The translations under genes were made by a program, and so were the position numbers. This document shows positions 10,496 through 24,238 of a DNA stretch of 64,000 nt, in pieces (positions within the stretch are counted from its first letter, which is position 1; the number at the start of each line of letters is the position of its first letter). The stretch lies in contig OX597828.1 of the NCBI GenBank assembly GCA_951406725.2, positions 52,886,001 through 52,950,000 on the forward strand, given 5' to 3'. The DNA comes from Octopus vulgaris (Eukaryota). The notes under the pieces are model-generated. The model had not been told where the DNA came from. It worked only from the letters and a program-made list of their open reading frames with translations, and searched no databases.

Positions 10496-11485
10496 GACTT
10501 ACAGGATAAAGCTGGAGAGATATCAAGTCAGTCAGAAACAGACGGAATTTTCCAATTCTTCAAAATGTATTTATACATATGCATGCACCCACTGAAAATT
10601 TCTGACCTGGAGTTCAATAGAGAGTTACGGATCTCCTAGACAAACACTTTCCAGTCACTCACAGATACAGAAAAATATTTAATAAGCGTTCTGTGAAATT
10701 ATCATATAGCTGCTGCCCCAATATGAAGAGTATCATTACACGTGTTCAATAACAAGAGCCTGAATCCAGTTGACTTGAATCCTGTCCACTTGACCATATA
10801 TAAGGCAGAAGTTACTGCAACCCTACATAATAATATATCAGATAAGAAGACCTATATAGGAATATGTGAAGGTGAATTTAAACATCGCTATGCCAATCAC
10901 ATAGCCTCCTTCCGACATAGACACAAAAGTAAAGCTACTAAGTTGGCTGGCTACGTGTGGACTTTGAAAGATAACAAAACATCGCTTATGATTAAATGGA
11001 AAGTTATTGAGAAATCCATACCTTATGTGAATGGATCGAATAAATGTAGATTTTGCTTCTCTTAAGGACCGCAGATCCTGTTCAGATCTAAGATCCATAA
11101 CTCTCTATTGAACTCCAGGTCAGAAATTTTCATTGATTGCATGAATATAGATATATTTTGGAGAACTGGAAAATTCCACCTATTTCTGACTGACTTGGTA
11201 TCTTTTCAACCTTATCATTTAAGGTCTAAGTAGGAGAGCTCTTTTACTTTTTTACTTTTTATTTTTCACATTTTAGTTTCTGTTTTTCTTATTCCGTTTC
11301 CGTTGTTTCCTGTCTGCGTTTTCTATATGTTGCCTTCTCAATTTTATTTATTTATTATTTATTTTTTTTTGCGTTTCTTCCATTATTCAGTTTGTTATAT
11401 GTGCTTTTCATCTGAAGAATATATTTGAATTTTCTCAACATATGAAACTATTAATAGCGCTTTAATATATGTATTGTGACCTTTA
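10496..11485 (+). mobile_element. Penelope-like retroelement 3' fragment: GIY-YIG endonuclease remnant, pLTR, and inverted 5' pLTR segment
   Basis: Peptides RKIFNKRSVKLSYSCCPNM and IYKAEV...TYIGICEGEFKHRYANHIASF...KCRFC...LLNSRSEI are typical PLE C-terminal/GIY-YIG motifs. 10496-10633 is an inverted copy of 11092-11228. Confidence 0.88.
11412..11459 (+). ncRNA. Degenerate hammerhead-like motif in the Penelope pLTR
   Basis: CTGAAGA, stem II (ATAT..TTGA/TCAA..ATAT), GAAA, palindrome CTATTAATAG. The UH triplet and stem I are decayed. Confidence 0.55.
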
Positions 11486-11492
11486 AATGAAT

Positions 11493-11537
<45 letters not shown>

Positions 11538-11569
11538 ATATATATACTTACATATATATATATATATAG

Positions 11570-12472
11570 TGAGTCAATGGGCAGACAGAAACAAATGCAA
11601 CTGAACGAGGGAAAATTTGAGCTGATGCATTTTGGAAGAAATTCCTCACTAAAACAGCCATACTCTCTTCCTTCAGGGGAACCGCTCACAGCCTCTAACA
11701 ATATCAGAGACTTGGGTGTAATTGTCGATGACGATCTCAGTTGGAGTGCACACATCAACAATAAGGTCGATATAGCTCGTAGGATGAGTTCCTGGGTCTT
11801 AAGAACTTTCCGGTCCAGAGAACAAGGTATTATCATACCACTTTTCTCCTCCCTTGTACGGCCACACCTTGAATACTGCTGCACACTGTGGTCTCCCCAT
11901 ACAAGACAAAACATCTCGAGGATTGAATCACCCCAGAGGGCACTCACTAAACGAATTGAAGGCATGGCTGCTCTCGATTATTGGGATCGCCTTGAAGCCT
12001 TGAAACTCTACTCTCTCCAGCGTCGCCGTGAGCGGTACATCATTTGTACGATGTGGAGAATATACCGCCAACTTTGCCCAAACGACCTGAACATTAGCTT
12101 CAAGGTTCATCCAAGACTGGGACCACGGGCCATACGTCCCTTGCCCAATTCAAGGTCACAGCATACATGTACACTGCAACATTATTTCTTTTCATCAACA
12201 GGCCCTGCCCTATATAACATTGTCCCGAAAGAGATCAAAGAGGAAAAGGATCCCATCAATTTTAAACGGAGTCTGGATAGATTCCTTCAAGAAATACCAG
12301 GTAAGCCACCCATAATTGGATACAACTTACCCAACAAAAACTCACTACTTGAATGGACCATAAACAAAACTTGACTTAAACAGGATTCAGATAATCCTAT
12401 CAGGTGATGCTATTAAGTTAGACATGGCCTGGACCAATCATTGGTCGAAACATATCTAAGTTTATCTAAGTT
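11570..12472 (+). mobile_element. CR1-type LINE, 5'-truncated 3' end (ORF2 C-terminus, open to its stop codon)
   Basis: RDLGVIVDDDLSW...LVRPHLEYC...YWDRLEALKLYSLQRRRER are CR1-clade motifs. The 3' tail has the tandem ATCTAAGTT repeat and the element is flanked by (TA)n. Confidence 0.93.
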
Positions 12473-12795: not shown

Positions 12796-12861
<66 letters not shown>

Positions 12862-12862
<1 letters not shown>

Positions 12863-13261
12863 GGAGTAAACACATAAATGTGAAACAAGGTGGAAAAAAG
12901 AGTACTCAAATACAAGTGGTAGAGTAATATGCTTTATTTAAAGCAGCAGAAAATTCAACAAAATCTGTTACTCTGAGTTTCTCGTTGCCGTTCATCAGAC
13001 AGTTTTTGCTAGAATGGAACCGATATATCAATTCAATCTAGACTCTTACAAACGCTACACCTTTAAAAAAAATGGACTTGTTTGATTGGCCCTTTAGAAA
13101 TAACGGTCAATCTTCGAGCGATAAACAAAAAAAGCTCAGCGTTTGTAAGAGTCTAGATTGAATTGATATATCGTTTCCATTCTAGCAAAAACTGTCTGAT
13201 GAACGGCAACGAGAAACTCAGAGTAACAGATTTTGTTGAATTTTCTGCTGCTTTAAATAAA

Positions 13262-13262
<1 letters not shown>
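12862..13262. mobile_element. Fold-back Penelope-type pLTR remnant (125-bp inverted arms, 81-bp spacer, 70-bp tail) in (TA)n
   Basis: 12932-13056 is the reverse complement of 13138-13262; each arm carries a hammerhead motif; same family as 23146-23372. Confidence 0.8.
13187..13234 (+). ncRNA. Type I minimal hammerhead ribozyme-like motif (mirror copy at 12960-13007 on -)
   Basis: AAAAACTGT-CTGATGA-ACGGCAACGA-GAAA-CTCAGAG-TA-ACAGATTTT. Stem I CTGT/ACAG plus AAAA/TTTT, stem II CG-GCAA-CG, stem III CTC/GAG, GUA triplet. Confidence 0.75.
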
Positions 13263-23145: not shown

Positions 23146-23146
<1 letters not shown>

Positions 23147-23372
23147 TTTATTTTAAGCAGCAGAAAATTCAACAAAATCTGTTACTCAGAGTTTCTCGTT
23201 GCCGTTCATCAGACAGTTTTTTCTAGCAAAAACTGTCTGATGAACGGCAACGAGAAACTCAGAGTAACAGATTTTGTTGAATTTTCTGCTGCTTAAAATA
23301 AAGCATATTACTCTACCACTGGTATTTGAGTACTCTTTTTTCCACCTTGTTTCACATTTATGTGTTTACTCC
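23146..23372. mobile_element. Fold-back Penelope-type pLTR remnant: 158-bp near-perfect palindrome plus 69-bp tail, in (TA)n
   Basis: 23146-23303 is self-complementary about CTAG (23223-23226). Hammerhead motifs at 23174-23221(-) and 23228-23275(+). Same family as 12862-13262. Confidence 0.82.
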
Positions 23373-23395
23373 GATATATATATATATATATATAT

Positions 23396-23770: not shown

Positions 23771-24170
23771 AAATATTAGGGAATAAATCCAAACTTACAG
23801 GGAAAAATCAGATTTAGGATTGAATCCAATTTTATAGTAAAATATATTATATTAAATTAGAGACAAAACCACTATTAGGCAAATCATACAATGAAAAACT
23901 TAAGCCAATACATAAGATTATTTAATTTATATTATTTAAATATATAACAAAATTATTAAAAAAATATAATTAATATAACACTACGATCGCCATGACTGTA
24001 ACTCGAAAATTTAAAGAAATTAACAGCCATGAAACGATCGTAGTGTTATATTAATTATATTTTTTAATAATTTTGATATATATTTAAATAATATAAATTA
24101 AATAATCTTATGTATTGGCTTAAGTTTTTCATTGTATGATTTGCCTAATAGTGGTTTTATCTCTAATTTA

Positions 24171-24180
<10 letters not shown>
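23771..24180. mobile_element. Second fold-back family: AT-rich inverted arms of about 146 bp plus a tail of about 70 bp, in (TA)n
   Basis: 23843-23989 is the reverse complement of 24035-24180. The centre contains GAAA-CGATCG-TA, resembling the 3' half of a PLE-type hammerhead. Confidence 0.7.

Positions 24181-24238
<58 letters not shown>

What the first reader, a model, noticed from the sequence alone, without database searches (positions are those of the whole stretch)
12862..13262. Hammerhead-carrying fold-back element (family 1, copy 1) inserted in (TA)n
Seen: 125-bp inverted arms, each with a type I hammerhead layout (stem I CTGT/ACAG, CUGAUGA, CG-GCAA-CG, GAAA, CTC-A-GAG, GUA). One arm stops right after AATAAAG; the other runs 70 bp further. 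Established: Penelope-like elements carry minimal hammerheads in their pLTRs and often have inverted 5' pLTR copies. Inference: this is a non-coding PLE derivative with a ribozyme on each strand that would form long dsRNA if transcribed. The A-A opposition at the base of stem II is non-canonical, so activity is uncertain.
Basis: partly seen in the sequence, partly recalled or inferred. Interest (0 to 1): 0.78.

Follow-up and report, generated by a model that had tools for sequence, protein, structure and literature searches.

The report
Two-ended Penelope stub, twin start hairpins
This is a truncated, non-coding, two-ended insertion of an abundant Hydra-clade Penelope-like jumping gene, and tracing its two ends showed a pair of conserved RNA hairpins across this clade that likely tell the element's reverse transcriptase where to start copying.

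Summary
The fold-back is real: 125-bp arms (one mismatch), an 81-bp spacer, a hammerhead motif on each strand, (TA)n flanks. It is a one-off, 5'-truncated, two-ended insertion of an autonomous Hydra-clade Penelope-like element (3,422 exact hammerhead copies; intact 711-aa RT/GIY-YIG ORFs). Its junction is unique, so it is not a self-spreading family. Inverted pLTR plus tail is published, and this scan met the pattern in four reports on other DNA. Read-through RNA in either direction makes the antisense arm first and is predicted to bury the ribozyme. The A·A pair replaces an A-U in an older sister family.

Not found in my literature searches: 40 of 44 inverted junctions pair one tailed with one tail-less end; both arms share subfamily variants (57 of 58); either arm can be longer. 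In 45 of 78 related loci two covarying GCUC…GAGCACU hairpins lie before the ORF, and element ends fall 0-8 nt before them. This family has divergent versions. Arm 5' ends pile up at an initiator-like site, not at the ribozyme cut. Likely mechanism: two hairpin-guided primings, one from each nicked strand. No RNA or biochemical evidence was obtained.

The parts
12799..12860 (.). (TA)n target, left side
12861..12931 (-). 70-71 bp 'tail' (positions +1 to +71 after AATAAAG); in tandem parent copies it continues into the 5' UTR and ORF; its outer edge is the family's 'long' 3' end
12901..12925 (-). Hairpin 1 (ACUC-stem-UUU-GAGU-ACU), divergent member of the clade-wide GCUC...GAGCACU hairpin; one substitution in the inner stem in this copy; predicted start signal for the 'short' end
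12932..13056 (-). Left arm: pLTR 3' part, sense on the minus strand
12965..13002 (-). Type I minimal hammerhead motif, copy on minus strand (predicted cut after 12969)
   Evidence: mirror of 13192-13229
13057..13137 (-). Spacer: parent 3' UTR sequence present only in the longer arm (reaches -206); holds a CCAAT-box-like GGCCAATCA at 13091-13083
13137..13138 (.). Inversion junction, 1-nt microhomology, unique in the genome
13138..13262 (+). Right arm: pLTR 3' part (reaches -124), ends at the family's 'short' 3' end AATAAAG
13177..13183 (+). Initiator-like CCATTCT; A13179 (-83) is the upper edge of the family-wide pile-up of 5' ends and the first base of a predicted extended helix I (13179-13195 with 13226-13241)
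   Evidence: initiator consensus recalled
13192..13229 (+). Type I minimal hammerhead motif, copy on plus strand; 2-bp stem II with GCAA loop, A·A at 10.1:11.1, palindromic stem III; predicted cut after A13225
13263..13316 (.). (TA)n target, right side

Best explanation
This is a young, 5'-truncated, two-ended insertion of an autonomous Hydra-clade Penelope-like retroelement in a (TA)n tract, likely made by two separate reverse-transcription primings, one from each nicked target strand. Shown: the parent is a ~3.36-kb unit with a 711-aa RT/GIY-YIG ORF; both ends of the insert are 3' ends of that unit, one at AATAAAG and one about 70 nt further; each of these two end positions lies a few bases 5' of a conserved RNA hairpin. 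Inferred: the element's protein, probably as a dimer, docks on hairpin 1 and hairpin 2 of the element RNA, cuts both strands of (TA)n, and starts one cDNA just 5' of each hairpin, with the TA-ending primer pairing over 2-4 bases. The two cDNAs grow towards each other, stop early (here at -206 and -124) and are joined by microhomology. The hammerhead is simply part of the copied pLTR; it is predicted to need a dimer to cleave and to be buried in the 125-bp duplex in any read-through RNA from this locus. The copy lacks hairpin 2 and the ORF and is most likely dead on arrival.
For: Parent ORF with Hydra-clade motifs; about 37 of 150 scored matches have the full 727-codon open frame (hand count). 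Junction unique. In 68 insertions sampled by position on C1, 40 of 44 adjacent inverted junctions join a long and a short end, 3 have one damaged end, and the 1 long/long row is the inner joint of an array whose outer ends are long and short. The tailed arm reaches further in 15, the tail-less arm in 14, within 3 nt in 11 of the 40; one cDNA folding back on itself could not supply the tail in those 14. Arms of one insert share the -8 subfamily variant in 57 of 58 pairs (0.56 expected), while rare variants are mostly in one arm (23 against 4 shared). Twin hairpins in 45 of 78 metagenome loci, 0 in 20 shuffles; first inner pair Watson-Crick in 38 of 39 and 37 of 37 unique hairpins, switching U-A/C-G; covariation score 0.164, reached by 0 of 500 shuffles. 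Ends fall 0-8 nt before a hairpin in 15 of 28 comparisons, and in 9 of the 10 same-locus ones. A model built without this family ranks its hairpins 1 and 2 first and second in a 401-nt stretch. PAc cuts and extends both strands and starts at two internal sites that bound the tail (PMC11167929).
Against: No biochemical or RNA evidence. The hairpin model missed this family's hairpins in a 108-kb search at E<=10 and scores them only 14.1 and 7.7 bits with filters off, against 20-36 bits for most held-out hits: they have a 3-nt bulge and changed bases. 33 of 78 loci did not show the twin pattern by the strict regular expression (some are truncated contigs; not all checked). The four GCUC/GAGC pairs were selected by the search and never vary, so they give no covariation support. 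13 of the 28 end comparisons fall elsewhere (mostly cross-family alignments). Related sequences inflate the shuffle controls. In PAc the start site is reported as not homologous to the cut DNA and lies in an AC-rich stem-loop, so the details differ. The sample is conditional on an exact 38-nt hammerhead and comes from one chromosome arm.
Confidence: 0.72

Rival explanations
1. Self-priming: one cDNA (or an antisense template) folds back on itself and copies its own 3' part, and the tail-less end is trimmed by the endonuclease. This is close to the model proposed for bdelloid Penelopes.
For: PMC3846280 reads palindromes at inverted junctions as self-priming. Arms share subfamily variants. 247 loci have a junction centred on a CTAG palindrome, and several very short inserts fold at the stem III palindrome.
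Against: The tail-less arm reaches further 5' in 14 of 40 inserts, the tailed arm in 15. Rare variants are mostly unshared between arms. Both end types also occur on lone, non-inverted copies, and each sits next to its own hairpin.
Confidence: 0.15
2. The fold-back is a non-autonomous family (retrozyme- or MITE-like) that is itself transcribed, self-cleaves and is re-inserted by the parent's enzymes.
For: The related ~230-bp form with the CTAG junction (window 23146-23374) recurs at 247 loci. Non-LTR retrozymes are proposed PLE derivatives (10.64898/2026.07.22.740005).
Against: This copy's junction is unique. The CTAG form occurs on both -8 subfamily backgrounds and in two junction variants and sits at the general 5'-end pile-up, where arms also stop with unrelated partners. 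It lacks hairpin 2. It is not a tandem head-to-tail array as retrozymes are. The ribozyme is predicted to be buried.
Confidence: 0.07
3. The ends and the long/short rule are set at the DNA level by endonuclease cuts at target-like sites (CATAT, GTGTA/GTCTA) in a tandem or circular DNA intermediate; the hairpins do something else, such as translation control or packaging.
For: Both end positions are followed by TA-like sequence in the parent. Craig et al. ascribe the tail to EN-mediated resolution; D. virilis EN needs the tail for recognition as cited in PMC11167929.
Against: PAc data map RT starts, not DNA cuts, to the tail ends. The covariation with a fixed bulge on one strand fits an RNA element, and hairpin spacing of 55-83 nt tracks the two end positions across families.
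Confidence: 0.06

Closest known systems
Hydra-clade Penelope-like elements (Craig et al. 2021, PMC8557442), e.g. Hydra-2_Amil, Hydra-1_Ajap, Hydra-1_Obim
   Same: C-terminal GIY-YIG, RWK, DKT, CxCx5C, CxxC and CxH around E and N, no CCHH, (TA)n target, hammerhead in the pLTR. Hydra-2_aMil's hammerhead has the same stem I (CTGT/ACAG), stem III (ACTC-x-GAGT) and cut base (File S2). Hydra-1_Ajap, Hydra-2_Ajap and Hydra-2_Amil consensi show the GCTC...GAGCACT hairpin by eye.
   Different: Unit ~3.36 kb with a ~1.1-kb 3' UTR, above the '<3 kb' given as general. A separate family from Hydra-1_Obim (different hammerhead and ORF, compared by eye). Best database relative is 57% identical. Stem II is 2 bp with A·A at its base. 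The sections and passages of the paper that I read do not mention the twin hairpins.
Canonical PLE insertion unit: pLTR plus adjacent inverted 5'-truncated copy plus 30-40 bp tail (PMC8557442 Fig. 2 legend; PMC3846280; PMC2377424)
   Same: Head-to-head inversion with both 3' ends outward, tail at one end only, short microhomology at the junction. Cervera and de la Pena note dual min-HHRs 100-700 bp apart on opposite strands in Schistosoma (PMC4209133).
   Different: Tail is 70 bp; the long/short pairing is near-absolute here; no ORF between the arms.
PAc (Poseidon, Anolis) in vitro TPRT (Frangieh et al. 2024, PMC11167929)
   Same: Two internal start sites that bound the tail, both strands cut and extended, AT-rich target, hammerhead not needed for insertion, no reads ending at the cut site.
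   Different: PAc starts inside the ORF in one AC-rich stem-loop, at a site not homologous to the cut DNA. Here the sites are in the 5' UTR, each next to its own copy of a hairpin, with 2-4 nt of TA-like match to the target.
Non-LTR retrozymes (10.64898/2026.07.22.740005)
   Same: Non-coding, type I hammerhead, PLE pLTR origin.
   Different: Retrozymes are direct tandem repeats with a hammerhead in each unit; this is an inverted pair with a unique junction.

Membership tests
Hydra-clade PLE (parent element) | Single ORF, RT followed by C-terminal GIY-YIG endonuclease | tested here: met
   711-aa uninterrupted ORF in L168 with YRDD and VVY...YTG motifs. Pfam gave no hit for this ORF; a second related ORF in L032 hit GIY-YIG at E 0.004, below cut-off. 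The call rests on motifs and on by-eye match to the published Hydra alignment.
Hydra-clade PLE (parent element) | RWK motif and DKG changed to DKT | tested here: met
   RLRWKAF and SDKTRN in L168 and L177; definition.
Hydra-clade PLE (parent element) | Linker CxCX5C; CxxC before E and CxH after N; CCHH absent | tested here: met
   CNCKNENSC, CKLCLLE, N...CRH in L168; no Cys between VVY and YTG. Some copies carry F for the second Cys.
Hydra-clade PLE (parent element) | Insertion into (TA)n | tested here: met
   55 of 60 short ends are followed by TATA; 43 of 47 non-tandem long ends by GTAT or GTCT.
Hydra-clade PLE (parent element) | Generally shorter than 3 kb | tested here: not met
   Tandem unit 3,362 bp; the paper says 'generally', so this is not an exclusion.
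Hydra-clade PLE (parent element) | Groups with Hydra RTs in a phylogeny against Neptune, Poseidon and Nematis | not tested
   No tree with named references was built; the published sequences were only read, not loaded.
Type I hammerhead ribozyme | Core CUGANGA, GAAA, NUH with helix I open | tested here: met
   core columns 98-100% conserved in about 148 arms, which in a young family shows youth rather than selection.
Type I hammerhead ribozyme | R10.1-Y11.1 pair closing stem II | tested here: not met
   A·A here. Among 56 unique Hydra-type hammerheads: U·U 26, G-C 21, A-U 3, G·U 3, C·A 2, A·C 1, A·A 0. The older sister family has U at 11.1 in 25 of 26 arms.
Type I hammerhead ribozyme | Covarying stems across related elements | tested here: met
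   33 of 79 loci carry the motif with many different paired stem I sequences; 0 in shuffles.
Type I hammerhead ribozyme | Self-cleavage at A13225 | not testable with these tools
   Only assembled contigs were available. No pile-up of insertion ends at the cut site.
Non-LTR retrozyme / non-autonomous family | Tandem direct repeats with a hammerhead per unit, or many copies sharing one structure | tested here: not met
   Inverted arrangement; junction found once in 2.8 Gb.

The most novel reading that the evidence does not exclude
Hydra-clade Penelope-like elements carry two tandem copies of an undescribed bulged RNA hairpin that act as twin docking sites for an RT dimer. Each fixes one reverse-transcription start a few bases upstream, one per target strand, which explains the PLE tail and the inverted insertions in one step. 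Linear transcripts starting at -83 give thousands of ~230-bp double strong-stop fold-backs, while longer arms and tandem arrays come from read-through or hammerhead-circularised RNA.
Probability: 0.45. Interest if true: 0.72.

Novelty: new member of a known kind. Interest (0 to 1): 0.5.

Why it matters
The insertion itself is an ordinary product of a known class. Its value is as a readout of how Penelope-like elements, the closest relatives of telomerase RT, prime reverse transcription; Craig et al. name the origin of tails and inverted repeats as unresolved. A short, covarying, twice-repeated RNA hairpin placed at both element ends gives a specific cis-signal to mutate, and a young family with intact ORFs supplies the protein. 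The derived A·A pair in the most recently expanded family offers a natural test of whether the hammerhead matters for transposition. Thousands of such fold-backs could also be a source of host dsRNA, which I could not test.

Tried and rejected
Rfam: no hammerhead or other relevant family for the window or for 8 of the 78 metagenome loci (only weak miRNA matches). RNA evidence: no RNA holder listed on record; contigs of three RNA-guessed runs and one unlabelled run cover the pLTR and ORF start but show no starts, ends or splice joints, so nothing is claimed on expression. No dimer prediction was obtained, so the dimer is inferred from PAc only. Programmed frameshift: three copies shared a shift at a T-run, but 62 of 78 matches are in frame (hand count); rejected. 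Ends at the hammerhead cut: 39 loci have both arms ending near it, 3 of them with both arms at it, against 247 at the CTAG site; no arm of the 113 sampled ended at -37 (a sample that needs one intact hammerhead per insert). The control pattern (640 matches) was confounded by subfamily SNPs and is not used; one search replaces it. A 3' splice site at TTCTAG was considered for the pile-up; arms run past the AG to -83, which does not fit. Lunse et al. 2017 is not held; I saw only its citation and the summary in PMC6765202. Pfam did not recognise the parent ORF. No host gene was recognised in the window among ORFs of 110 aa or more (by eye); exons could have been missed. The sequence look-up in earlier findings and the same-genome look-up were empty.

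Full report
Observation. The described structure is in the sequence: arms 12932-13056 and 13138-13262, 125 bp with one mismatch, an 81-bp spacer, a hammerhead layout on each strand, and (TA)n on both sides. It folds at -233 kcal/mol, z = -29.9. Rfam does not recognise the hammerhead. Positions below count from the G of AATAAAG as 0 (13262 on +, 12932 on -).

The parent. The window lies in a 2.8-Gb animal genome; a cephalopod is my recalled guess, not tested. The arm search gave 1,297 candidates, 40 scored, and the exact 38-nt hammerhead occurs 3,422 times, against 0 for the reversed control. Longer copies run into an ORF upstream and, in tandem copies, downstream of the arm. The unit is 3,362 bp. 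Two of 12 loci examined held the whole frame from the first Met (711 and 709 aa), and about 37 of 150 scored matches have a 727-codon open frame (hand count). The protein has RWK, DKT, YRDD, CxCx5C, CxxC-E, N-CxH and no CCHH, the stated marks of the Hydra clade (PMC8557442 section 11). Its best database relative is 57% identical. It differs by eye from Hydra-1_Obim in ORF and hammerhead. The first 277 nt of the finding match copy L007 at 99.6%, so the insert is young.

What the insert is. Both ends are 3' ends of the parent. The 70-bp extension is the start of the next tandem unit, the known PLE tail. The junction occurs once in the genome. I took the first 100 hammerhead matches on C1, grouped them into 68 insertions and fetched all 68. 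Of 44 adjacent inverted junctions, 40 join a tailed to a tail-less end, 3 have one damaged end, and 1 is the inner joint of an array whose outer ends are again long and short. One further pair of non-adjacent arms with ends at +11/+12 (L140) does not fit and was outside that count. The tailed arm reaches further in 15, the tail-less arm in 14, and 11 are within 3 nt. In 58 inverted pairs (the sample plus 9 CTAG loci, 11 loci and the two window copies), both arms carry the same -8 variant in 57 (0.56 expected); within-insert mismatch is 0.9% against 2.1% between inserts; rare variants were shared 4 times and unshared 23 times. So both arms come from one source, but one is not a copy of the other. 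This fits two primings better than the self-priming proposed in PMC3846280 (passages) and matches the two internal starts and two-strand extension shown for PAc (PMC11167929, parts 1-2 of 4 and passages).

Twin hairpins. In 78 metagenome loci encoding relatives, 64 carry GCTC...GAGCAYT on the coding strand (shuffles 1.0, minus strand 7) and 45 carry two such hairpins 55-83 nt apart, usually 12-42 nt before an ATG (0 in 20 shuffles). After a 2-nt bulge the first inner pair is U-A 25, C-G 13 of 39 unique first hairpins and C-G 35, U-A 2 of 37 second hairpins; other bulge sizes give almost no pairing. On a 64-row alignment, 56 cells change on both sides and no shuffle of 500 reaches the covariation score; slid controls are far lower. 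The GCUC/GAGC pairs were selected for and are invariant, and the rows are related, so these controls are not probabilities. Where a copy could be compared with an uninterrupted one, its end fell 0-8 nt before hairpin 1 (5 rows) or hairpin 2 (10 rows) in 15 of 28 rows, and in 9 of 10 same-locus rows. A model from these hairpins found 45 matches, 41 on the coding strand, in the 33 loci left out. This family has hairpin 1 at +7 to +31 with a compensatory G-C to A-U change and hairpin 2 at +80, 73 nt apart; both form in the predicted fold of a tandem copy. They are divergent: the model missed them in 108 kb and, with filters off on 401 nt, ranked them first and second at 14.1 and 7.7 bits. The window copy holds hairpin 1 only. 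Three published Hydra consensi show the motif by eye. I did not find it described in the parts of PMC8557442 that I read (outline, sections 10, 11, 15, passages, supplement parts 2 and 52 and searches), in Rfam, or in searches (listings only). Subscription papers, Lunse et al. 2017 and the figures and supplement of PMC11167929 were not seen and could mention it.

The 5' pile-up. 33 of 113 sampled arms end between -79 and -84, and the next ones lie at -90 or beyond. Genome-wide, a pattern reaching -80 has 2,835 matches and one reaching -85 has 1,681; in the sample all 22 of 78 matches that lacked the extra bases were truncations. The CTAG-centred junction alone accounts for 247 loci, including the second window copy, and occurs on both subfamily backgrounds. 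The edge, A13179, sits in an initiator-like CCATTCT with a CCAAT-like box about 75 nt upstream (consensus motifs recalled) and is the first base of a predicted extended helix I. PLE transcripts start in the pLTR (PMC2377424 passages; PMC8557442 section 10). I infer that -83 is the RNA 5' end; this is untested. The finding's arms pass it (-206, -124), so its template included the 3' UTR, through a tandem read-through, a template jump or a circle as proposed in PMC4209133 (parts 1-2 of 4).

The hammerhead. The layout matches Hydra-2_aMil in stems I and III. Hammerheads were found in 33 of 79 loci with varied paired stems. A mismatch at 10.1:11.1 is the commonest state in these relatives (29 of 56) but A·A was seen in none. 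An older sister family in the same genome has U at 11.1 in 25 of 26 arms, giving A-U, so A·A is probably derived in the young family. Stem III has a 1-nt loop and a self-complementary duplex of -8.0 kcal/mol, as in dimer-type PLE hammerheads with low in vitro activity. Insert ends do not pile up at the cut site, in line with uncleaved RNA being the template for PAc. In this insert, read-through in either direction makes the antisense arm first; the core is paired with probability above 0.999 and forcing stem I costs 76 kcal/mol. It is therefore predicted to be silent here.

Verdict. The element is a new family member of a known clade, laid down in a published pattern that four earlier reports of this scan also reached on other DNA (unchecked). 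The twin hairpins, the strict long/short rule, the one-source arms and the -83 stop are shown in sequence; their roles are inferred. They make the PLE priming mechanism testable, which lifts the interest above that of an ordinary stub.

Noticed in passing
window 23146-23374: Second two-ended insert of the same family, about 230 bp, with the CTAG-centred junction found at 247 loci; one arm has a substitution in stem III.
   Followed up: yes
window 10600-11490: Decayed 3' part of a different Hydra-type element (34% identity to the parent over 97 aa) with its own hammerhead-like CTGAAGA...GAAA near 11413-11450, ending in a TA tract.
   Followed up: partly
window 23842-24181: Unrelated AT-rich ~340-bp fold-back, MITE-like, no hammerhead, next to (TA)n.
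   Followed up: no
window 11487-12371: Open frame resembling the tail of a LINE-type reverse transcriptase by eye; no Pfam hit.
   Followed up: partly
L316, L319-L348 (e.g. G000:C1:26340130-26340335): Older sister family, 3,771 candidates, also forming long/short fold-backs in (TA)n, with A-U at the base of stem II and a GGAA loop.
   Followed up: partly
L317 and L318 (G000:C1:53518565, C1:9708465): Further hammerhead variants in the genome, one with U·U at 10.1:11.1 and a CG/CG stem.
   Followed up: partly
L032 2573-3934 minus; L031 7364-7924 minus: A second Hydra-like ORF with a weak GIY-YIG hit, and a Tc1/mariner DDE fragment next to a full-length copy.
   Followed up: no
L208 4388-4420, L209, L216 and others: Hairpin 2 lies a short, fairly constant distance before the start codon, so it could also affect translation.
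   Followed up: no
PMC8557442 supplement, Chlamys-9_cRei 5' end: A GTGCTC...GAGCAC inverted pair near the start of a non-Hydra consensus; may be chance or a distant equivalent.
   Followed up: no
window 13255-13262: The short end falls one base after an AATAAA hexamer, with U/GU-rich sequence downstream in the tail; it could double as a polyadenylation signal. Three sampled arms end at +22, +26 and +33.
   Followed up: no
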